64,000 bases of DNA from an uncultured Candidatus Poseidoniales archaeon (GCA_902625885.1 CACODE010000004.1:40751-104750), one strand, 5' to 3'. Positions 36,569 through 56,396 are shown, counted from the first letter of the stretch. Numbers and translations are program-made. The notes: generated by a model not told the origin, from the letters alone.

Positions 36569-37090
36569 TCAGAGGTAAAGGTGAGCGTGCTTGGCGCGAA
36601 CTTTGGCGATTTTTGGACCGACGACAGCCATGCAGTAGCCTTGATAGGGATTTCGAGCGTAGTAGTCGTGGTGTTTCTTTTCGGCAATGAGGAAATGGAC
36701 GGGTTCCTCGATGGTGGTGACGATGGGGTCGTCGTAGACGTTGCCCATGTCGGCAATCGTCGCCTCGGCCGTCGCCCGTTGGTCTTCTGAGAGTGGCATG
36801 ATGCAGGAACGGTATTGCGTGCCGATGTCGTTACCTTGACGGTTGAGTTGGGTCGGGTCGTGGACGGTGAAGAACACCTCAAGGAGGGTCTCAAAAGAAA
36901 CAATGGTTGGGTCAAATTGAACCTCAACCACTTCAGCGTGCCCGGTTGTGCCGCTGCAAACAGCTTCGTAAGTCGGGTGAGGGTCGTGGCCCCCAGCGTA
37001 GGCAGGTAGCGCCGATTCTACACCTTTGATTTGCTTGTAAGCGCCCTCCACGCACCAGAAGCATCCGCCACCAACAATCATTCGTTCCAT
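36569..37090 (-). CDS. msrA: peptide-methionine (S)-S-oxide reductase
   Basis: 'GGGCFWCVEGAY' active-site motif, 173 aa. Confidence 0.9.
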   Translation of the reverse strand: MERMIVGGGCFWCVEGAYKQIKGVESALPAYAGGHDPHPTYEAVCSGTTGHAEVVEVQFDPTIVSFETLLEVFFTVHDPTQLNRQGNDIGTQYRSCIMPLSEDQRATAEATIADMGNVYDDPIVTTIEEPVHFLIAEKKHHDYYARNPYQGYCMAVVGPKIAKVRAKHAHLYL

Positions 37091-37141
37091 GGTTGTACCT
37101 ATAGGGTGGTCTCATTTGAAGGTTTGATTCAGACACTAGGC

Positions 37142-37546
37142 CTAATTTTCCCAAGATGAGGTCGTCTGATCGTCCAGGACCACGACACCGATGATATCCG
37201 TTTTTTGGTTTTTACTTTGGAATACGTACATCGCACTTCCATGAAAATAGGGCTCGCCTCCACGATTTATCCTGTGGAAATCAACCAGAAGCGTTCCGGT
37301 GTTCTCTGATACGCTCGTGAAATCAAGGTTATTCAAACGGCTGGCAACATACCCATCGGCGTCCAGTGAGCCACGCAGCAATGAGAATCCATCCAAGAGT
37401 TCTTTTCTGTTTTCAAAAATGCTGGTCCCCGATGGTGATGAAGCAAAAAACGGTGTTCTGCATGTGTCTGCAATAGTAACGTAGTCCTTGTCTTCAAACG
37501 CCCGTATGTATTTCATGTACTGGTCCATTACCTGTTGTTCGTCCAT
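37142..37546 (-). CDS. NTF2/SnoaL-like small protein (hypothetical), low-GC
   Basis: 134 aa. Size and alternating pattern fit an NTF2-like fold. A hand-counted 100-nt sample is about 44% GC. Confidence 0.45.
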   Translation of the reverse strand: MDEQQVMDQYMKYIRAFEDKDYVTIADTCRTPFFASSPSGTSIFENRKELLDGFSLLRGSLDADGYVASRLNNLDFTSVSENTGTLLVDFHRINRGGEPYFHGSAMYVFQSKNQKTDIIGVVVLDDQTTSSWEN

Positions 37547-37565
37547 GAAACCTTTCCCAAGGTGG

Positions 37566-37577
37566 CCGTTATAGAGG
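37566..37577. promoter_or_regulatory. TATA-like element in the divergent island promoter region
   Basis: 'CCGTTATAGAGG'. On the minus strand, 'CTCTATAACG' is centred about 26 nt from the ATG at 37546, which is leaderless-type spacing. It is also about 19 nt upstream of the ATG at 37591 on the plus strand. Confidence 0.25.
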
Positions 37578-37590
37578 CATCGGAGAACAT

Positions 37591-37719
37591 ATGGCCACCA
37601 ATTTGAGGAGAGCGCTATATGATGGTGAAGGATGCCGGCGTCCTCAATACCTACAAGAGGTTGACAAAGAAATGAAGAAGTTAAACCTCTTGGTTAACAT
37701 GAGGACGGTTGGTGAATGA
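37591..37719 (+). CDS. candidate 42-codon upstream ORF coupled to the 390-aa gene
   Basis: Hand translation gives MATNLRRALYDGEGCRRPQYLQEVDKEMKKLNLLVNMRTVGE*. Its TGA (37717-37719) overlaps the ATG (37716-37718) of the next gene as ATGA. Confidence 0.2.
   Translation: MATNLRRALYDGEGCRRPQYLQEVDKEMKKLNLLVNMRTVGE
37654..37692. repeat. 9-bp perfect inverted repeat CAAGAGGTT-n21-AACCTCTTG upstream of the island operon
   Basis: Read directly from the sequence. It lies inside the candidate uORF, 24-62 nt upstream of the ATG at 37716. Confidence 0.6.
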
Positions 37720-38888
37720 GCGCGGTAGATTCTCCCCGGGAATTGCCCTATGCCTCCGTGGATATCCTCAACGGAATTGAAATCAAGATTGGCGAGGGTT
37801 GGATTAAATTTTCTTACCCACTGGCTAAGGGCATTGAGAGAATAGAAATCAGTTGTGCTTGGATTGAGTCAAACCCAGCAGATAGAATCGGTATCTGGGT
37901 AGGTCTGTCTGACGAAAGAGTCCCGCAAACGCTTACCGCATGGGGTAATGGCCATGCTATTGGATTGGAATCCTATGGTGAAAACTCACCAATCGTAGAT
38001 GTAGAACGCTGGGAATTTGGAAAGTCCGCCAAATTGATTGTTGAAACGAAACAACAAGAGATGAAATTGAACGTTTACCTTCTCTGCCGCCCTCGATTGG
38101 ATGATTTGAAAAGATCACTTGAGATTACCATTGATGAGTATTCTGCAATAAACGGGATGAAACCAGAAAATTCAGAAACAAGGGTATACGAATTTCAGCG
38201 AGCAGAAAAAAGCCCTATGATGAGGACAACAATATCGAAACTCGAGGAGTTGGGTTCACTAAATTACACAGGGATTGGAAACGTCATCCATCCCAAACAA
38301 ATTCTTACGCTCAAGGCGCTTCAGCACCTCCTCAGAAAGAAGATGCTCAACGATGAAAAATCATTTTCTGTCGCTTACGTTGGGACAGACACCCTTGAGA
38401 ACCTAACCAGCATCATTCGATGGCTCGAATCAAAGGGATTGTATGGACAGATCACAGAAATCAAGGCATATACTTACGACGATTGGGATGACAAACTCCA
38501 AGATCTGCTCGATGATTTGGTTCCTGTAAATATTGGAAACGACTCAAAAGTAGACCTTGTGCCGAACAATGAATCACAAAGGGCCGATGCTTCCAGCCAC
38601 GATGTTGTCATCACTACTTATGTGTGCCCTTGGATAAAAAAAGACGATAGGGATGACTTCCAGGCGCTCATTGACAAACTCGTAGGTCCGAATTCCGTGC
38701 TTATCTCTGTTGACCCCAAAACTGCGTTAAACTCAGTTAGGAGTCCAATTTTTAATTCCAATGAGTACAATCCTCAGTCAATATACAAGGGAGAAGATGG
38801 ACTTGAATTAAGCAATCTTAAGACGTTCAAATTCCACGCTGCAGAGGCAATAATCTACAAACGAAAAAAGGGGTGGGTGATGAGATGA
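37716..38888 (+). CDS. hypothetical protein (390 aa), first large gene of the low-GC island operon
   Basis: Long ORF with A/T-rich codon third positions. No motif I can assign. The C-terminal half has an alternating beta-alpha pattern ('FSVAYVGTD...','HDVVITTYV','NSVLISVDP') vaguely like a Rossmann/methyltransferase fold. Confidence 0.6.
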   Translation: MSAVDSPRELPYASVDILNGIEIKIGEGWIKFSYPLAKGIERIEISCAWIESNPADRIGIWVGLSDERVPQTLTAWGNGHAIGLESYGENSPIVDVERWEFGKSAKLIVETKQQEMKLNVYLLCRPRLDDLKRSLEITIDEYSAINGMKPENSETRVYEFQRAEKSPMMRTTISKLEELGSLNYTGIGNVIHPKQILTLKALQHLLRKKMLNDEKSFSVAYVGTDTLENLTSIIRWLESKGLYGQITEIKAYTYDDWDDKLQDLLDDLVPVNIGNDSKVDLVPNNESQRADASSHDVVITTYVCPWIKKDDRDDFQALIDKLVGPNSVLISVDPKTALNSVRSPIFNSNEYNPQSIYKGEDGLELSNLKTFKFHAAEAIIYKRKKGWVMR

Positions 38889-41800
38889 AAACCTTGCCCT
38901 CTCAATCCCAATCAGAGACAGCAAATGGTGTCCGTAGTTTTCACACAAACTCAGTTCGAGCTATCTCCGACAGGGTGCGCAGCATGATCTCCCCCCAGCC
39001 TACTGCAATTTTTTACGATGAGATTGTTCATCAACTCGGTTCAGTTGAGCCTGACACGATTGAGTATTTTATCCGAGTCTGCAATATCGTCTGTAAGATC
39101 AAATCACAGAATACATTAAGAACAGAAAATTTGATTCAACTCGCCGATTATGACTCTAGAGCGTTAGATGAATTCGAAACGTTTGTACTCTCTAGTCCGG
39201 AGATTAAAAACAGGAAATTTAAACACAACTTGGCGAGGGTTTTCCGTGATGTTCTTCCTAAGCGAGAACTTAGTAGATTTAACGAACTCACAACAAATAT
39301 TGGAAACTCAGAATTACGCCCTCCACCCACGGTAGATCAGTACGCCCTAGCTGAGGATGAGATAAAAACGCCTCCTTCAATTCGTAGAAGAAGTACAAGT
39401 TCAGCAAAAGTAGGGGATGATCTGCTAAGTTGGTTAACAGAATCTTCCATCCCCCTCGAATTGCTGTGTATGTTTTTCCACGATCTTGCCAAGCCAGAAC
39501 CACGGGGAGAAATGGGATTTCTAAGATTCCTTTGCCGTTCCTCAGTTATCGTGTTGGGACAAAAACAGTATTCCAATGCACCCAGCACCGCGGTCCGAGG
39601 ATCATCTGAACTAATTCTTGTTTGTTCAGAATCAGAATTTTATGCGAACAGAGAGAAATATTCTCAGTTCGTAGTTCTTAATTGTAAAAACTCTGATGAG
39701 TTTTTGGCTCTCCACAATGAGAGGTTTTCATCTACCTATGAGCGATACATCACTTCGCTGTCAAATGCAACGATGTTTGGAAAATGTGGCTCGAAAGTTA
39801 CGCGTATCGACAAACTCTACTCTACTCGTAATTTTTTTCCGGTGAAAACTCAGGGTGATAAGAACAATCTGACGACGGTATCCCCTGAATCCATTGATGA
39901 AATCAATTCAAACCGTGGAAGCAAAGAAGTAGAACTAGAGGAAAAACTCTGGGAAGAATTGGAGCAGGCAAGGGGTATGGGGGTGGACTCAGTGCGTCTC
40001 GCAGAAGCGCTTCATAATGTGGGTAAGCATGTGAGAAACCAAACATCAGATGACACCGTTGCAGACGAATTATTCGATGAATGCTTGAAGGTTTCAAAAC
40101 GAATTAACTATATCGAAGGGGAAGCAAAGGCGTTGAACAGCTTGGGCATCTCCGCAAAAAATCGACAAGACTACGCTTCTGCAAGGATCTATTACAACGC
40201 CAGTTGTAATCTAATGGAGGATTGCTCTAACTATGAAGGATTATCAAAATCGCTTGTGAATCTTGGTATTTTGGAACAGGGTGTCGGCCGATTTGGGGAT
40301 GCCCGGGCCTATTTCAGACGTGCAATTAACATGAAGGAAAAACATGGCTTGAATGTTAGTCCCGCCCTTTACTCTAGACTTGATGTTGTATCTGGCGCAG
40401 GAAGCGGAATCAATCCAAACCGCCGTGCTCCTCCATCTCGCACCAGTGCAAATACCTTCAGACAACTTCTCGGACAACGCTCAGAGATTTTTGTGTTACG
40501 AGGAGATGCAGGTTCGGGAAAAAGTATTGCAATGGTCCAATTTGCCAACCACTACATCACTGCCATTGAACAAAAGATGGATGATAATTCATGGGATCAT
40601 AACGATATTGTTATCCCTATTTTCTTGAAATCCCGTCATCTTGATATTAAATGGGGATCGTGGAAAAATGGCTTGGGAGACACTGCAATTGAGGTTGAGG
40701 GGCCGTTGAGTCCGAGCGTCATAACAGATGGTATACTGCGCTCAAACCCAAGTCTGCAGGATCAACTTTCTGCAAGTGAACTTACCAATTTTTTCGAGTT
40801 CCTTGAAGCGGCAGGTGAATATCTCAACATTCGTTTTCTAATCTTCGGGGACGCGGTTGATGAAATCCCAGATGAACATCAGCGAGGTGTATTTTGTGAG
40901 TGGGTTCGCTCCATGAGCAAGCAAAAACATTCTGAGATTTATCTTGCGGTGAGACCCGGTTTCCCTGAGGTGGAACAACTCGCAACAAACGATCAAATCG
41001 TTGACCTGGAAATCCCTGTTGATGTTCTCAAAAATGAAATGCCAAACATGTTATGCCGTGCATGGGGCATCTCCGAAGAATTGGCTGACGTATACCAAGA
41101 ACGTTTTGAGGAGTTTGAGGAACTGTTAACCCATCCGCTCTACGTGGGATGGTTTTGTTTCCTTCTCTACTCCAACGAACTCACGGACGATATTGTAGGC
41201 ACTGCAACAGAGAAGAAACATGCAGTGATTCAACGTATTGTTGAGATCGGCATTGATTCTGCACTTGATCGGCGCGAGAGTCCGTTGGCGAATCTTGACC
41301 CAGTCAAACGAAAGGAATTTCATAAGAAAGTACGCCAATTCATCGCTCTTGCCCATCACAGCCCGAGTGAACCCGCAGTGAAATCATATTTTGACAAATT
41401 AGAGAAATTGACCGATTACTCGTTTACAGAGGATGAAAAACATGCCATTCAGCATGATTGCGGCATCCTCTTCCTCGCAGATAATGGACTGGTTTGGACG
41501 CACCATACCGTTCCAGAAATCATCTATGCGGACCACATTCATGAACTTTGGAATGGAGATTTGAACCCGTCGTTGATGGCTGGTAAGCCCCGAATATCCA
41601 CCCCCTTTATCCAGCGGTTGAGCTCGCTTCGTGGGTCGACAAAACTCGAAATCGCTCGCGAACTTCTCGAATATCCCTCAATAACCAAATCAGACGCAGA
41701 TGTTCTTTTCTCAATTGCAGACAGATTTGATTGGTCCGGAAACGAACTTTATCTAGATGAACATGGCGTTTCTGACGTCCCTTTGCTGGATGTTAGACCG

Positions 41801-42895
41801 AATAAGGATGTTATCAAAGATGCTCTGAATAAGATATTCTTCGTGAATCAATTTGAAATTTCATCTGAGAAGGTGCCTGAGGACCTGAGTGTTTTTTGGC
41901 AGTACAGAGTTGATTGCGCAATGCTCCTTGCAGAATTACTGAATCTCGGATTCCGTTCTCCTTTGGACGAAATTTGTATGACGAATGAAGCAATTTACGC
42001 ACTTGCAAATTTATCAGAAACGCTAGATTATTCTGATGTTTTCGATACCATTTCTTGGTATCATAGCATAATGACAGATGAAGAAGATGTGCAGGAACCG
42101 TGGGAAGACTTTGTACCTTGGAATGCAGAACTTCTTCTCAAGCGAGTAAAGAAAAATCCACTGTTGATTCATGATTTTGACAGCCTCATCCATCTCGTTG
42201 GAGTTCAACTAGACCATGGGGACCGATCGGTTGATAACGTCCGTCCATTGTTCAACCTACATCATGTTGAGCTGGCAGATTCCTTGCTTACCGGCAGCGA
42301 GAATGATTATTGTTGGAGTGCGTGGGGGATGCGTTCCCCATCAGCTAGCGAATACAATCTAACCATGCACTTTCTCTCTGAGGGGCATCAACAGGAATAT
42401 GATACAAAACATTATTTGCACAACAACCAAGTTTTTGTTTCCAGATCATCGCTGGCTCAAAATCTCAGTTTGAGAGAGAATGAAGAACGCATTTTTGACG
42501 GGTTAAGGCGTTCGATCGTGGAGATTGTTTTCGGAAACCTCTACGGTAAAAACTGGGAGAACAAGGTAGAGGAATTGTATGGTTTGGTAAAAGACCAATC
42601 CGAATCAATAAACAAATTGTATGATGAGATGTTCTGTGTTGCGTACGATGACTTCTTTTTCTACTACAATGACAATCCACCTGATGTCATTTGGATTGGA
42701 CACGAATTCTATGAAACAAGCATCGAAAAGAAAGGGATTTCACTCATTCCGTTCGTTGCTTACGCTATCGGGAATGTCGATGGTGACATTCGGAATCAAT
42801 TTTACGAAGATAGCCACGATGTAGCAATTGATTTTGTTCTTGATGCAGGGAAGAGTGCTGTCAACAGATTCCGATATCCGTCAACTCGAAAATAG
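38885..42895 (+). CDS. giant STAND NTPase: unknown N-domain + TPR repeats + NACHT-type P-loop + ~600-aa helical C-terminal region
   Basis: Walker A 'VLRGDAGSGKSIAM', Walker B 'IRFLIFGDAVDEIPD' (NACHT-like DGxDE) and 'IYLAVRPGF' (TSRP-like). TPR-like repeats lie upstream ('EAKALNSLGISAKNRQDYASARIYYNASCNL...SKSLVNLGILEQGVGRFGDARAYFRRAINM'). The ATG at 38885 overlaps the upstream TGA as ATGA; an alternative GTG is at 38873. Confidence 0.7.
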   Translation: MKTLPSQSQSETANGVRSFHTNSVRAISDRVRSMISPQPTAIFYDEIVHQLGSVEPDTIEYFIRVCNIVCKIKSQNTLRTENLIQLADYDSRALDEFETFVLSSPEIKNRKFKHNLARVFRDVLPKRELSRFNELTTNIGNSELRPPPTVDQYALAEDEIKTPPSIRRRSTSSAKVGDDLLSWLTESSIPLELLCMFFHDLAKPEPRGEMGFLRFLCRSSVIVLGQKQYSNAPSTAVRGSSELILVCSESEFYANREKYSQFVVLNCKNSDEFLALHNERFSSTYERYITSLSNATMFGKCGSKVTRIDKLYSTRNFFPVKTQGDKNNLTTVSPESIDEINSNRGSKEVELEEKLWEELEQARGMGVDSVRLAEALHNVGKHVRNQTSDDTVADELFDECLKVSKRINYIEGEAKALNSLGISAKNRQDYASARIYYNASCNLMEDCSNYEGLSKSLVNLGILEQGVGRFGDARAYFRRAINMKEKHGLNVSPALYSRLDVVSGAGSGINPNRRAPPSRTSANTFRQLLGQRSEIFVLRGDAGSGKSIAMVQFANHYITAIEQKMDDNSWDHNDIVIPIFLKSRHLDIKWGSWKNGLGDTAIEVEGPLSPSVITDGILRSNPSLQDQLSASELTNFFEFLEAAGEYLNIRFLIFGDAVDEIPDEHQRGVFCEWVRSMSKQKHSEIYLAVRPGFPEVEQLATNDQIVDLEIPVDVLKNEMPNMLCRAWGISEELADVYQERFEEFEELLTHPLYVGWFCFLLYSNELTDDIVGTATEKKHAVIQRIVEIGIDSALDRRESPLANLDPVKRKEFHKKVRQFIALAHHSPSEPAVKSYFDKLEKLTDYSFTEDEKHAIQHDCGILFLADNGLVWTHHTVPEIIYADHIHELWNGDLNPSLMAGKPRISTPFIQRLSSLRGSTKLEIARELLEYPSITKSDADVLFSIADRFDWSGNELYLDEHGVSDVPLLDVRPNKDVIKDALNKIFFVNQFEISSEKVPEDLSVFWQYRVDCAMLLAELLNLGFRSPLDEICMTNEAIYALANLSETLDYSDVFDTISWYHSIMTDEEDVQEPWEDFVPWNAELLLKRVKKNPLLIHDFDSLIHLVGVQLDHGDRSVDNVRPLFNLHHVELADSLLTGSENDYCWSAWGMRSPSASEYNLTMHFLSEGHQQEYDTKHYLHNNQVFVSRSSLAQNLSLRENEERIFDGLRRSIVEIVFGNLYGKNWENKVEELYGLVKDQSESINKLYDEMFCVAYDDFFFYYNDNPPDVIWIGHEFYETSIEKKGISLIPFVAYAIGNVDGDIRNQFYEDSHDVAIDFVLDAGKSAVNRFRYPSTRK

Positions 42896-42923
42896 CATCT
42901 TTCGAATGAAGATTGCTCCTCGT

Positions 42924-42932
42924 GTTTGTTTT
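42924..42932 (+). terminator. oligo-T tract (TTTGTTTTT) about 30 nt after the NACHT gene stop
   Basis: Archaeal terminators are typically oligo-T. The tract lies in the 39-nt gap between the convergent genes. Confidence 0.3.
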
Positions 42933-42934
42933 TC

Positions 42935-44515
42935 TCACTGGTTCGCAGTTTCCAGCGTGCTCTGTCCGTAATCAAGCAAACTCTTCTGTGGATTTGGTTC
43001 GGCTTTTCCTTGCTGGTTCTGGCTTGTTTTCTGCCGCCTGAAGGTCCGTTTTTTCCGGCTGCCGTGAAGGGTGTACACCGCTTTCGATCGGGCTTTCACT
43101 CCTTCGTTACGCCGCGCTGCATACGCTTTTTTGATGCCAAGGTTGCGGGCCTCCGCCTCGTCGAGGATAGGAAGCGGGTAAGTCTCCCCAACGATGACGC
43201 CAGTCGTTTTTTGCATCGCTTCGCTCATCGTCCACGGTTCGTGAATTTGAGGTGTGGGCACCATCGCAAGCTCCGGCACCCACTTTCGGATGAAATCACC
43301 GTCTAGGTCGTGGTCAAGGGATTGTTTGAGGATGGAGTAGGCCCGCACGGCGTTGATGCCCGTGATGCCAGATTGCATGTGGATTTGCGACCAGTGGATG
43401 CCGGGCTCGTAATCGATGAACAACTTGGCCAGGTGAGTCCCGGTGCGTTGCCATGGCAACCAGAGCGTGTAGGCAGCAACGGACTGCATCATGGCCCGCA
43501 TTCTGAAATTGATCCACCCCGTGGCTTTCAGCGAACGCATGCATGCGTCAAAAAACGGCCATCCCGTCCTTCCTTCCGCCCATGCATGAAAATGTTCCTC
43601 AACACCTTGGCGTTCAAGGGCCGCGTCGAGTTCAGGATTGATGGATTGGACGTCCATCGTGGTTTCCATCTCAAGACGTTGAACGAAATGGCAACGCCAC
43701 GACACCCTTGAGGTGAAGGCGTTGATGTTTTTTCGGAAGGTTGCGGTGTCAACATCTGGGTTGTTTGCTACGGCCTTGTTCGCCTCCCGCAACCGTTGTT
43801 TCACTTGCCGGACGCTCAGGGCGCCGCAGGCGAGGTAGGCGGACAGGCGTGAGGAACCTTCTCGTGATGTTGCTGGGTTTGATATGGTGGGCAAGTAGTT
43901 GTCAAACCGGGTTTCCAAAAACGAGTCCAACCAAGCGTGCGCTGCCTTTTCCCCTGCTTCAAGCGGCGTGTTGACGAGGCCATGATGGTCCCGAGTGTTG
44001 GAAACGCTGTCAACGGAATCAAGCGAGGAGTGGGCAGGAAGGCTTCCTGGGGCCTCAAGAACCGGCATCACCATTCTTCGGTTGCGAAGCGTGTTCCAAC
44101 GGTCGCGGTTCAATAGCGCTCGAACAACGCCGTTGGAAGGGCATTGATGCCATACGATGCCGTTGACGTCGCACCAGCGCTGAACACGTTTGTCCCGCTC
44201 CCATGACCACATCAAACCTGTTTCCTGATGGCTGTACAGGCATGTGATAGGGCATTTTTGGTGAATGGCTGACAGCACTTCGGTGGGCTCGCCGGTAACG
44301 AGTTGCACGGTGCCTCCAAGTTCGTTGATGGAACGGGCGAGCGACCGGGCGTTGGCCAAGTCCCAAGCCAAGTGCAACGCAGAAACATCGGGCTGGTTGG
44401 CCCGCTCTGGCTCGTCGATGTAGAGACAGAGGACGTCGTCTTCGGCGCCATACGCCTCAACGAGGGGTGCGTGGTCAGCAAGGCGCAAATCGCGCTTGAA
44501 CCAGACCACTCGCAT
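42935..44515 (-). CDS. phr: cryptochrome/photolyase-family flavoprotein
   Basis: 'MRVVWFKRDLRLADHAPL' N-terminus and a C-terminal FAD-binding region ('...WINFRMRAM...IDYEPGIHWSQIHMQSG...'). Confidence 0.8.
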   Translation of the reverse strand: MRVVWFKRDLRLADHAPLVEAYGAEDDVLCLYIDEPERANQPDVSALHLAWDLANARSLARSINELGGTVQLVTGEPTEVLSAIHQKCPITCLYSHQETGLMWSWERDKRVQRWCDVNGIVWHQCPSNGVVRALLNRDRWNTLRNRRMVMPVLEAPGSLPAHSSLDSVDSVSNTRDHHGLVNTPLEAGEKAAHAWLDSFLETRFDNYLPTISNPATSREGSSRLSAYLACGALSVRQVKQRLREANKAVANNPDVDTATFRKNINAFTSRVSWRCHFVQRLEMETTMDVQSINPELDAALERQGVEEHFHAWAEGRTGWPFFDACMRSLKATGWINFRMRAMMQSVAAYTLWLPWQRTGTHLAKLFIDYEPGIHWSQIHMQSGITGINAVRAYSILKQSLDHDLDGDFIRKWVPELAMVPTPQIHEPWTMSEAMQKTTGVIVGETYPLPILDEAEARNLGIKKAYAARRNEGVKARSKAVYTLHGSRKKRTFRRQKTSQNQQGKAEPNPQKSLLDYGQSTLETANQ

Positions 44516-55510: not shown

Positions 55511-55586
55511 TGGTGGACGTGCCGAGATTTGAACTCGGGGCCTCTACCATGCCAAGGTAGCGATCTTCCAACTGATCTACACGCCC
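55511..55586 (-). tRNA. tRNA-Ala (anticodon GGC), CCA encoded
   Basis: The reverse complement folds as GGGCGTG-TA-GATC-AGTTGGAA-GATC-G-CTACC-TTGGCAT-GGTAG-AGGCC-CCGAG-TTCAAAT-CTCGG-CACGTCC-A-CCA. The G3:U70 Ala identity pair is present. Confidence 0.88.
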
Positions 55587-56319: not shown

Positions 56320-56396
56320 GGACGTATAGTGTAGTCTGGATATCACTTCGGCCTTCTAAGCCGAAAACCCGGGTTCGAATCCTGGTACGTCCGCCA
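56320..56396 (+). tRNA. tRNA-Arg (anticodon TCT), CCA encoded
   Basis: Acceptor GGACGTA/TACGTCC, anticodon stem TCGGC/GCCGA with loop CTTCTAA, T arm CCGGG-TTCGAAT-CCTGG, then G-CCA. Confidence 0.85.

What the first reader, a model, noticed from the sequence alone, without database searches (positions are those of the whole stretch)
38885..42895. Giant (~1336 aa) archaeal STAND/NACHT NTPase with inverted domain order (unknown N-domain, then TPR, then NACHT, then ~600 aa unknown)
The P-loop 'GDAGSGKS', the NACHT-style Walker B 'LIFGDAVDEIPD' and the 'LAVRP' sensor-1-like motif together identify a NACHT-type STAND ATPase. In characterised prokaryotic antiviral STANDs (Avs/bNACHT) and in NLRs, the repeat sensor normally follows the NTPase. 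Here clear TPR-like repeats (roughly aa 385-505) come before it. About 370 N-terminal and about 600 C-terminal residues carry no motif I can recognise. Either region could be a new effector or sensor module. An archaeal NACHT system on a foreign-composition island could plausibly be an undescribed immune or signalling system.
Basis: partly seen in the sequence, partly recalled or inferred. Interest (0 to 1): 0.85.

Follow-up and report, generated by a model that had tools for sequence, protein, structure and literature searches.

The report
Archaeal NACHT ATPase with methyltransferase-like partner
The giant gene is a real, intact NLR-type (NACHT) switch ATPase of a marine archaeon, always encoded with an undescribed methyltransferase-fold partner gene; the pair looks like a new two-gene immune or signalling module, but its function is unproven.

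Summary
The ORF (38885-42895, 1336 aa) and all quoted motifs are real. The window protein is below Pfam thresholds for NTPase models. Its small family is 57 clusters among 1.84 billion proteins. In that family 31/39 members match NACHT and 35/39 match NPHP3_N. The NACHT-diagnostic Walker B D[GAS]hDE (D656-A-V-D659-E660), Walker A, sensor-1 R690 and a His motif (H873) are conserved.

The gene is translationally coupled (ATGA overlap) to an upstream 390-aa gene. That pairing holds at 58 junctions in related loci, sometimes as tandem arrays of 2-3 diverged pairs. The partner matches no Pfam family. Its AlphaFold model is a beta-sandwich plus a class I SAM-methyltransferase fold.

The TPRs are a clade-specific insertion (about 5/39 members), not the family's sensor. 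About 220 of the "600 unknown" C-terminal residues are the conserved post-NTPase helical region.

The pair sits in a 43-47% GC island in a 55-57% GC Poseidoniaceae (Marine Group II) genome. It is 93-97% identical to copies at a different locus in reef metagenomes. There, two deeply diverged alleles of the N-terminal half share near-identical flanks.

Immune function is plausible but unproven: only one of at least 12 contexts holds known defence genes.

The parts
37100..42930 (.). Low-GC (0.42-0.47) island between msrA (36569-37090, -) and photolyase (42935-44515, -). The part shared with the reef-metagenome copies is 37665-42893.
   Evidence: Composition profiles. BLASTN against L001 and L145. 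Pfam on the flanking genes. No flanking direct repeats, integrase or tRNA at the borders.
37716..38888 (+). Partner gene, 390 aa: N-terminal beta-sandwich (aa 1-162) plus C-terminal class I SAM-methyltransferase-like Rossmann domain (aa ~190-385). Its stop codon overlaps the NACHT start codon (ATGA).
   Evidence: No Pfam, NCBIfam or PADLOC hit. AF2 model pLDDT 63. Foldseek: 266 PDB hits at E<=1e-3, top 50 all class I methyltransferases; BFVD gives the same picture. A homologue lies immediately upstream of the NACHT gene at 58 junctions.
38271..38744 (+). Invariant partner motifs: GxGNxxHPKQxxT (aa 186-198), YxGxDxxEN....R (aa 221-235, at the methyltransferase motif I position), WD (257-258, after beta2), TYVxPW (301-306, motif IV position), DP...R (333-342).
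   Evidence: Alignment of 40 partner homologues. Positions checked. Secondary-structure register.
38885..42895 (+). NACHT-clade STAND NTPase gene, 1336 aa.
38885..39694 (+). N-terminal extension (aa 1-270) of unknown fold. Shared only with P0001 and the L085 protein.
   Evidence: phmmer of segments against all collected relatives. No PDB sequence hit.
39713..39844 (+). Family-conserved pre-NTPase motif (aa 277-320; Y288, C301, L311; 'FGKCGSKVTRIDKLYSTR'). In shorter relatives it lies at the very N-terminus.
40037..40399 (+). TPR insertion (aa ~385-505; Pfam TPR_12 at aa 414-486 = nt 40124-40342).
40442..40984 (+). P-loop NTPase core (aa ~520-700): Walker A 40502-40525, Walker B D-A-V-D-E within 40838-40864, sensor-1 Arg R690 within 40937-40957.
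   Evidence: Invariant columns G540 G543 G545 K546 D656 D659 E660 R690 in 39 sequences. Pfam on family members.
40985..41644 (+). Most conserved region of the family (aa 701-920), read as the helical domain plus winged-helix domain of the STAND module: MPxxLxxAWGI (41039-41071), THPLYVGWF (41126-41155), WTHxTxPE with H873/E878 (41489-41530).
   Evidence: 58 relatives hit this segment. Conserved columns. The HD1/WHD assignment is inferred from motif resemblance, not from a model.
41645..42892 (+). C-terminal region (aa 921-1336) of unknown fold. Shared only with the closest relatives.
   Evidence: The single-sequence AF2 model was unusable (pLDDT 36).
38863..40930 (+). Mosaic segment. Against L001 it has diverged to synonymous saturation, while both flanks are about 96-97% identical. 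The same locus in L145 carries the window-type allele.

Best explanation
The feature is one half of a conserved two-gene module of marine archaea.

Gene 1 (37716-38888) encodes a protein of an undescribed family. It has an N-terminal beta-sandwich and a C-terminal class I methyltransferase-like Rossmann domain. Its invariant residues sit on the loops that form the cofactor/substrate cleft in methyltransferases.

Gene 2 (38885-42895) is translationally coupled to gene 1. It encodes a NACHT-clade STAND NTPase.

Shown:
- the family assignment;
- the obligate gene pairing;
- purifying selection;
- horizontal acquisition by this Poseidoniaceae genome;
- two ancient alleles of the N-terminal half at one locus;
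- tandem arrays of diverged pairs.

Inferred mechanism: as in other NACHT/NLR proteins, the NTPase module is held off in an ADP-bound state. A ligand is recognised by the variable terminal regions (N-extension/TPR and/or the C-terminal region). Binding triggers nucleotide exchange and oligomerisation. This recruits or activates the partner enzyme as the output, probably a SAM-dependent modification of a nucleic acid or protein.

The most likely biological role is a conflict (antiviral) system. This is less certain than the anatomy.
For: NACHT assignment:
- Walker A, Walker B D-A-V-D-E, sensor-1 R690, P751/G755 and H873/E878 are invariant or nearly so across 39 family members.
- Pfam NPHP3_N matches 35/39 members, NACHT 31/39 (best E 2.1e-9) and nSTAND3 16/39.
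- A precomputed NACHT hit exists on P0017.
- D[GAS]hDE is the stated NACHT discriminator (bioRxiv 10.1101/2022.07.19.500537).

Obligate pairing:
- Partner homologues (22-50% identity) lie directly upstream of a family NACHT gene in essentially every locus with enough upstream DNA.
- 58 junctions were measured. Most overlap by 4 nt or 1 nt.

Partner fold and pocket conservation.

No member of the NACHT family carries a recognisable fused effector domain. The adjacent gene is therefore the natural output candidate.

Conflict-system hallmarks:
- A foreign-GC island, 93-97% identical to copies at a different, MutY-flanked locus.
- Two alleles of the N-terminal half with saturated dS inside flanks that are 99-100% identical to each other.
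- Tandem arrays of 2-3 pairs that are only 26-47% identical.
- Disrupted copies in some contigs.
- One locus abuts DISARM (DrmA/B/C, SNF2) and GmrSD.
Against: - No experimental data exist for any member.
- No PADLOC model of a known defence system matches either protein family.
- Among 80 non-redundant neighbours from at least 12 contexts, most are housekeeping genes: SufBD, ribosomal L15e, aminotransferases, TGT and others. Only one context holds defence genes.
- In several lineages the pair sits at a syntenic position, as a vertically inherited chromosomal gene would.
- The family was not found in 2.9 million viral contigs.
- The partner lacks the canonical GxGxG loop. It has G-T-D-T-x-E-N instead. 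Its model is only of moderate confidence (pLDDT 63, with low confidence in the pocket loops). SAM binding and catalysis are therefore unproven.
- The helical/winged-helix assignment rests on motifs. No Pfam WHD/HD model matched, and the PDB profile search gave only generic P-loop hits plus NLRC4 at E 0.014.
- Pairwise omega of 0.12-0.24 gives no sign of positive selection.
Confidence: 0.45

Rival explanations
1. This is a non-immune cellular signalling module. A STAND switch ATPase, comparable in logic to MalT/AfsR-type regulators, senses a metabolite or protein and controls a dedicated methyltransferase-like enzyme acting on a cellular target. The island in this window would then be an ordinary horizontal transfer of an accessory regulatory pair.
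For: Neighbours are mostly housekeeping genes. The chromosomal position is syntenic in two sets of loci. All regions are under purifying selection. There is no known effector domain and no PADLOC hit. The family is absent from viral contigs.
Against: No DNA-binding or other output domain typical of regulatory STANDs was detected. Three observations are unusual for a housekeeping regulator: tandem arrays of deeply diverged pairs with variable copy number at one locus; a two-allele polymorphism with saturated dS within near-identical flanks; and disrupted copies. One locus lies in a DISARM/GmrSD island.
Confidence: 0.3
2. This is a modification-dependent discrimination system, restriction-modification-like or BREX/DISARM-like. 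The partner would methylate host DNA or RNA as a self mark. The large protein would carry an unrecognised nuclease or other restriction activity in its orphan N- or C-terminal domain, gated by the NTPase.
For: The partner has a methyltransferase fold with a conserved pocket. Large orphan domains flank the NTPase. One locus sits next to DISARM and GmrSD. A few members give weak PADLOC hits to MADS components (mad8, E 4.6e-4, 3/39).
Against: None of 40 partner homologues matches any DNA or RNA methyltransferase family in Pfam. No canonical GxGxG or (D/N/S)PP(Y/F) motifs are present. The orphan N- and C-domains are not conserved across the family, so a conserved nuclease is unlikely. The window and L001 partners are 97% identical although the N-halves of their NACHT proteins are only about 45-50% identical.
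Confidence: 0.12
3. This is a selfish addiction or mobile-element cargo module, toxin-antitoxin-like. The tightly coupled pair would be maintained because losing one gene is toxic. It would spread horizontally without benefit to the host.
For: Tight translational coupling. Horizontal transfer into a new context with foreign GC. Disrupted copies in some populations.
Against: No integrase, transposase, terminal repeats or tRNA target at the island borders. Gene sizes (390 + 1336 aa) and the STAND architecture are atypical for addiction modules. Synteny is long-term stable in several lineages.
Confidence: 0.08
4. The P-loop region is a generic AAA/ABC-type ATPase and the NACHT resemblance is coincidental.
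For: The window protein alone is below all Pfam NTPase cut-offs. The PDB profile search is dominated by generic P-loop hits: mS29 and DEAH helicases.
Against: Family-wide NACHT, NPHP3_N and nSTAND3 matches. The D[GAS]hDE motif, the sensor-1 Arg and the downstream His motif are conserved.
Confidence: 0.03

Closest known systems
Bacterial NACHT proteins (bNACHT; Kibby et al., bioRxiv 10.1101/2022.07.19.500537) and animal/fungal NLR NACHT modules
   Same: P-loop with GxxGxGK[ST]. Walker B with the NACHT-specific D[GAS]hDE. Sensor-1 Arg in an 'hhhh(T/V)(S)RP' strand. A conserved helical region follows, then a His-containing motif at the position of the winged-helix histidine. Variable N- and C-terminal regions. 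Pfam NACHT and NPHP3_N match most family members.
   Different: No recognisable N-terminal effector and no recognisable C-terminal repeat sensor. TPRs, where present, lie N-terminal to the NTPase. The gene is obligately coupled to a separate partner gene. The hosts are marine planktonic archaea. No PADLOC defence model matches. Placement among the 25 NACHT clades was not tested.
Antiviral STANDs (Avs1-5 and the ~90 defence-associated STAND families of Nature 2026, PMC13581612)
   Same: The general logic I propose: a STAND switch with variable sensor regions, accessory distribution and horizontal transfer.
   Different: Avs proteins are typically single polypeptides with a fused nuclease, protease, SIR2 or TIR effector and a C-terminal sensor. 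Here no fused effector is detectable, and the candidate output is a separate methyltransferase-fold protein. Membership in any of those clades could not be tested with the tools at hand.
nSTAND3 / NPHP3-type NTPases (Pfam PF20720, PF24883; Kaur et al. eLife 2020, PMC7159879)
   Same: These are the best-scoring Pfam NTPase models for the family (35/39 NPHP3_N, 16/39 nSTAND3). Some members associate with TPRs.
   Different: In NPHP3-type proteins the TPRs follow the NTPase. The multi-gene conflict systems of Kaur et al. use other adaptors and effectors, and none has this partner family.
Class I SAM-dependent methyltransferases (small-molecule O-methyltransferases, TrmR, RsmD-like HI0767, METTL21/18)
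   Same: The partner's C-terminal domain has the seven-stranded Rossmann-like topology, including the terminal beta-hairpin. Its invariant residues sit after beta1, beta2, beta4 and beta5, where methyltransferases bind SAM and substrate.
   Different: No sequence-profile match to any methyltransferase family. The glycine-rich loop is replaced by G-T-D-T-x-E-N. An additional invariant GNxxHPKQ motif and an N-terminal beta-sandwich are present. Cofactor binding is untested.

Membership tests
STAND NTPase superfamily | P-loop NTPase core with Walker A GxxGxGK[ST], Walker B acidic residues and a sensor-1 arginine | tested here: met
   G540, G543, G545, K546, D656, D659, E660 and R690 are invariant in 39 aligned family members. 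Positions verified.
STAND NTPase superfamily | Helical domain and winged-helix domain directly after the NTPase core, with a conserved histidine contacting the nucleotide | tested here: inconclusive
   aa 701-920 is the most conserved region of the family (58 hits). Its motifs are MPxxLxxAWGI, THPLYVGWF and WTH(873)xTxPE(878), which resemble NLR HD1/WHD motifs. However, no Pfam HD/WHD model matched. The PDB profile search gave only NLRC4 at E 0.014. The only structure model of this region was unusable (pLDDT 36).
NACHT clade of STAND | Walker B signature D[GAS]hDE (as stated in bioRxiv 10.1101/2022.07.19.500537) | tested here: met
   D656-A657-V658-D659-E660. D656, D659 and E660 are invariant, and the family consensus is IDAxDE.
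NACHT clade of STAND | Match to curated NACHT-type profile models above threshold | tested here: inconclusive
   Window protein: NPHP3_N 18.8 bits against a cut-off of 24.8, and no NACHT hit at E<=0.1. Relatives: NACHT in 31/39 (best E 2.1e-9) and NPHP3_N in 35/39 (best E 9e-10). A precomputed NACHT hit exists on P0017. Membership therefore rests on transitive homology.
NACHT clade of STAND | Phylogenetic placement of the NTPase domain inside the NACHT clade relative to AP-ATPase, MalT/SWACOS, MNS and nSTAND | not testable with these tools
Known STAND-based anti-phage systems (as modelled in PADLOC-DB v2.0.0) | Match to a defence-system protein model | tested here: not met
   The window protein hits only the generic TPR model. 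Across 39 family members only scattered weak hits appear: mad8 in 3 members at E 4.6e-4, and PtuA in 1.
Prokaryotic defence systems in general | Enrichment next to known defence genes (defence islands) | tested here: inconclusive
   One context (L082/L083) has DrmA/B/C, SNF2 and GmrSD next to the pair. The other 11 or more contexts show mainly housekeeping or unannotated genes. No background rate could be computed.
TPR repeat proteins | Profile match to TPR models above the curated cut-off | tested here: met
   TPR_12 at aa 414-486, 39.3 bits against a cut-off of 30.1.
Class I SAM-dependent methyltransferases (partner protein) | Seven-stranded Rossmann-like fold with a C-terminal antiparallel hairpin | tested here: met
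   AF2 strand/helix order beta1-alpha-beta2-alpha-beta3-alpha-beta4-alpha-beta5...beta6-beta7. Foldseek gives 266 PDB hits at E<=1e-3, and the top 50 are all class I methyltransferases, with TM (target-normalised) up to 0.58. The model is only of moderate confidence (pLDDT 63).
Class I SAM-dependent methyltransferases (partner protein) | Glycine-rich motif I (GxGxG) and an acidic residue after beta2 for SAM binding | tested here: inconclusive
   Motif I is replaced by the invariant Y221-x-G223-x-D225-x-x-E228-N229. Acidic residues follow beta2: D255 is nearly invariant in the 10-sequence alignment and D258 is invariant. None of 40 members matches a Pfam methyltransferase family.
Class I SAM-dependent methyltransferases (partner protein) | SAM binding and methyl transfer | not testable with these tools
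   Requires biochemistry.

The most novel reading that the evidence does not exclude
This is a previously undescribed archaeal NLR-type immune system. A NACHT switch is obligately coupled to a new beta-sandwich/methyltransferase-fold enzyme that acts as its effector, in place of the nucleases, proteases and NADases of known systems. It would be maintained in Marine Group II populations as ancient alternative alleles and as tandem arrays of diverged receptor-effector pairs. That arrangement would be an archaeal counterpart of eukaryotic NLR gene clusters.
Probability: 0.3. Interest if true: 0.8.

Novelty: new variant of a known kind. Interest (0 to 1): 0.62.

Why it matters
Marine Group II archaea are among the most abundant planktonic archaea. 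They are uncultured, and their defences against their viruses are essentially unknown. NACHT/NLR proteins are central to immunity in animals, fungi and bacteria.

An archaeal branch with an obligate methyltransferase-fold partner would add a new output type to STAND signalling. It would also add a new protein family with a conserved, probably catalytic, pocket. The two-allele mosaic and the tandem arrays offer a natural system for studying how NLR-like receptors diversify by module exchange.

If the non-immune reading is right instead, the pair would be a new type of STAND-controlled modification enzyme.

Tried and rejected
1. Single-sequence AlphaFold of aa 505-1336 gave pLDDT 36 and was discarded. 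It was not used for fold search.
2. Scans with the single protein found no relatives in genome, metagenome or viral contig collections. Only the family alignment retrieved loci.
3. The word-indexed protein search found one true homologue; the rest were TPR-only hits.
4. The PDB profile search with the family alignment gave only generic P-loop hits. PDB sequence searches of the N-domain, the C-domain and the partner family found nothing.
5. NCBIfam gave no hit for either protein.
6. Pfam at E<=1 on 40 partner homologues gave only noise.
A 10-sequence alignment was used instead.
8. A search for island-border repeats or integration signatures found only short chance repeats.
9. I considered diversifying selection as the cause of the divergent N-terminal half and rejected it. 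dS is saturated and omega is 0.14-0.32 against L001, and omega is 0.18-0.24 against the same-allele copy L145. The pattern is recombination between old alleles, not rapid adaptive change.
10. I considered a viral origin. The family is absent from IMG/VR.
11. I considered that the upstream block of unannotated genes seen in many low-GC loci belongs to the system. It is absent from the window and from the L001/L085 loci, so it is not an obligate component.
Full report
**1. Observation**

The ORF is real. It runs from ATG 38885 to the stop at 42895 and encodes 1336 aa. An in-frame GTG lies at 38873.

The quoted motifs are at these positions:
- GDAGSGKS, aa 540-547
- LIFGDAVDE, aa 652-660
- IYLAVRP, aa 685-691

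Pfam finds TPR_12 at aa 414-486 above its cut-off. For the NTPase region it gives only sub-threshold hits: AAA_16, NPHP3_N and nSTAND_NTPase5 at E about 2-4e-3.

GC is 0.42-0.47 from about 37100 to 42900, against 0.55-0.58 outside. The flanking genes are msrA and a photolyase.

The host is a Marine Group II archaeon. Its purF is 87% identical to that of Poseidoniaceae MAGs.

**2. The gene is half of a pair**

The start codon overlaps the stop codon of an upstream 390-aa ORF (37716-38888) as ATGA. A GGTGAT Shine-Dalgarno-like sequence lies just upstream.

The only close homologue of the large protein in 5.8 billion clustered proteins is P0001, at 71% identity. It lies on a 5.8-kb reef-metagenome contig (L001), behind a 392-aa gene that is 97% identical to the window's upstream gene.

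More distant homologues of the upstream protein (31-50% identity) are each followed by a large protein of 1194-1248 aa. Those large proteins are homologous to the window protein.

**3. The family**

An exhaustive HMMER search of 1.84 billion representatives with aa 505-1336 found only 57 clusters at E<=1e-3. All matched aa ~535-920.

In an alignment of 39 full-length members:
- Invariant: G540, G543, G545, K546, P578, D656, D659, E660, R690, P720, L723, A726, W727, P751, G755.
- Nearly invariant: H873, E878 and a pre-NTPase motif (Y288, C301, L311).

Members scanned individually against Pfam gave these matches:

| Pfam model | Members matched (of 39) | Best E-value |
|---|---|---|
| NPHP3_N | 35 | 9e-10 |
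| NACHT | 31 | 2.1e-9 |
| nSTAND3 | 16 | 1.5e-8 |

The Walker B D656-A-V-D659-E660 fits the D[GAS]hDE signature. Kibby et al. give that signature as the discriminator of NACHT from other STANDs.

I therefore accept the NACHT-clade assignment by transitive homology and motifs. The helical/winged-helix part (aa 701-920) is the most conserved region of the family (58 hits). Its assignment rests on motif resemblance only, because no model or profile confirmed it.

**4. Domain map of the large protein**

| Region (aa) | Content | Conservation |
|---|---|---|
| 1-270 | N-terminal extension, unknown fold | Shared only with P0001 and the L085 protein |
| 277-320 | Pre-NTPase motif | 18 members; lies at the N-terminus of shorter relatives |
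| ~385-505 | TPRs | About 5 of 39 members |
| ~520-700 | NTPase core | Family-wide |
| 701-920 | Conserved helical region | Family-wide, most conserved |
| 921-1336 | C-terminal region, unknown fold | Closest relatives only |

The 'inverted order' is therefore a clade-specific TPR insertion. Only about 415 of the '600 unknown' C-terminal residues are truly orphan.

No member carries a recognisable effector domain. No PADLOC model matches meaningfully.

**5. The pairing is a family-wide rule**

A pattern scan of JGI metagenomes with the family alignment returned 50 loci, all marine or estuarine. I built HMMs of the partner and of the NACHT core and searched these loci.

A partner homologue lies directly upstream, on the same strand, in essentially every locus with enough upstream DNA. 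Of 58 junctions, most overlap by 4 nt or 1 nt, or abut.

Loci L101, L102, L103, L128, L133 and L144 carry two or three consecutive pairs. Paralogues within an array are only 26-40% identical for the NACHT protein and 33-47% identical for the partner.

**6. The partner**

None of 40 homologues matches any Pfam family, even at E<=1. Neither NCBIfam, PADLOC nor PDB sequence searches find anything.

An AlphaFold2 model built from a 10-sequence alignment has pLDDT 63 and pTM 0.53. It shows a beta-sandwich (aa 1-162) and an alpha/beta domain with class I methyltransferase strand order, including the terminal hairpin.

Foldseek gives 266 PDB hits at E<=1e-3. The top 50 are all class I SAM-dependent methyltransferases. 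The viral structure library gives the same answer.

Invariant residues cluster after beta1, beta2, beta4 and beta5, plus one further motif:
- after beta1: Y221, G223, D225, E228, N229
- after beta2: W257, D258
- after beta4: T301, Y302, V303, P305, W306
- after beta5: D333, P334
- additional motif: GNxxHPKQ

These are the loops that form the SAM/substrate cleft in methyltransferases. That points to a functional pocket. However, the canonical GxGxG loop is absent, and these loops have low model confidence.

**7. Horizontal transfer and allelic mosaic**

DNA identity between the window and L001 depends on position:

| Window coordinates | Identity to L001 |
|---|---|
| 37665-38863 | About 96% |
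| 38863-~40930 | 51-70% nt, measured per 250-nt window between the breakpoints; third-codon-position identity mostly ~0.3-0.45, i.e. saturated |
| ~40930-42893 | 93-99% |

A third contig, L145, shares L001's flanks at 99-100% identity: a MutY-like gene upstream and the same gene downstream. Yet it carries the window-type middle segment at 88-94% identity.

So two ancient alleles of the N-terminal half coexist at one locus in one population. The N-terminal half comprises the N-extension, the TPRs and the NTPase core up to sensor 1. The window genome has acquired one of these alleles at a different site.

The L085 group (33-48% identical pair) occupies the same MutY-flanked position, with flanks about 51-54% identical. 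In those lineages the pair is therefore long-resident.

Omega is 0.12-0.24 in every region that can be measured. Both alleles are under purifying selection, and the mosaic reflects recombination rather than fast adaptive change.

No integrase, tRNA or border repeats mark the window island.

**8. Genomic context**

In L082 and L083 the pair follows a DISARM system and GmrSD (DrmA E=0, DrmB 3.5e-122, DrmC 1.8e-25, plus SNF2).

Elsewhere the 80 non-redundant neighbours are mainly housekeeping or unannotated genes. About 12 low-GC loci share one syntenic neighbourhood, with one to three pairs inserted.

The family is absent from IMG/VR. The context evidence for defence is therefore weak and mixed.

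**9. Interpretation**

The anatomy is well supported: an obligate two-gene module made of a NACHT-clade STAND NTPase and a new methyltransferase-fold protein.

The mechanism is inferred from what is established for NACHT/NLR proteins. Ligand recognition by variable terminal regions releases an ADP-locked state. Oligomerisation follows and activates an output. Here the output is most economically the partner enzyme.

Several features favour a conflict system: horizontal transfer, old balanced alleles, tandem diverged arrays, occasional disruption and one defence-island context. The housekeeping contexts and the lack of any known effector keep a non-immune signalling role as a serious rival.

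**10. Novelty**

NACHT STANDs are a known kind. The following were not matched by anything in Pfam, PADLOC, NCBIfam, PDB sequences or the papers consulted:
- the obligate coupling to this partner family;
- the partner family itself;
- the archaeal planktonic host range;
- the allele and array structure.

I could not test membership in the 589 STAND clades of PMC13581612.

Noticed in passing
L130:2995-6222, L132:3299-6526, L137:3759-6866: In these loci the family NACHT gene is short (772-837 aa). It is followed, with an overlap, by a 1035-1075-aa gene with its own STAND-like motifs (GIGGLGKT, LLVLDNFED, VTSR, HPLML). This gives a partner-NACHT-second-STAND arrangement reminiscent of paired NLRs.
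   Followed up: partly
L144:4169-8726; also L101, L103, L108, L127, L133; inverted on the P0017 contig: A conserved, tightly packed block of unannotated genes (about 185, 727, 174, 95, 258 and 103 aa; none has a Pfam hit; several look like coiled-coil or membrane proteins) lies immediately upstream of the pair(s) in many low-GC loci. It is absent from the window.
   Followed up: partly
L082:1-9916 and L083: A DISARM-like set (SNF2, PLD/DrmC, DrmB, DrmA) plus a GmrSD-type gene and a 180-aa unknown gene lie directly upstream of a partner-NACHT pair on a 29-kb TARA scaffold.
   Followed up: partly
L145 (whole contig) and L089:1571-5155: Copies of the pair are broken into several ORFs. In L145 (2x coverage) the partner is split into 279+109 aa and the NACHT gene into 115+357+661 aa. 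In L089 the NACHT gene is split into 671+444 aa. These are either pseudogenes or assembly errors.
   Followed up: partly
window:37142-37546 (-): A 134-aa ORF with no family hit lies inside the low-GC stretch (GC about 0.47), between msrA and the partner gene. It is not shared with L001 or L145, so its relation to the island is unclear.
   Followed up: partly
window:53000-56400: A second dip in GC (0.487 around 53-55 kb) lies next to tRNA-Ala (55511-55586, -) and tRNA-Arg (56320-56396, +). It may be another inserted segment.
   Followed up: no
window:4637-6196 (+): After the Poseidoniales hits, the purF gene's next-best matches (57-64% identity) are almost all marine Gammaproteobacteria rather than other archaea. 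This suggests an old inter-domain transfer of purF.
   Followed up: no
window:19858-22647 (+): A 929-aa ORF shows only weak similarity to XPB helicase and the EcoAI type I restriction R subunit (E 7e-6 and 8e-4). It may be a helicase-type gene.
   Followed up: no
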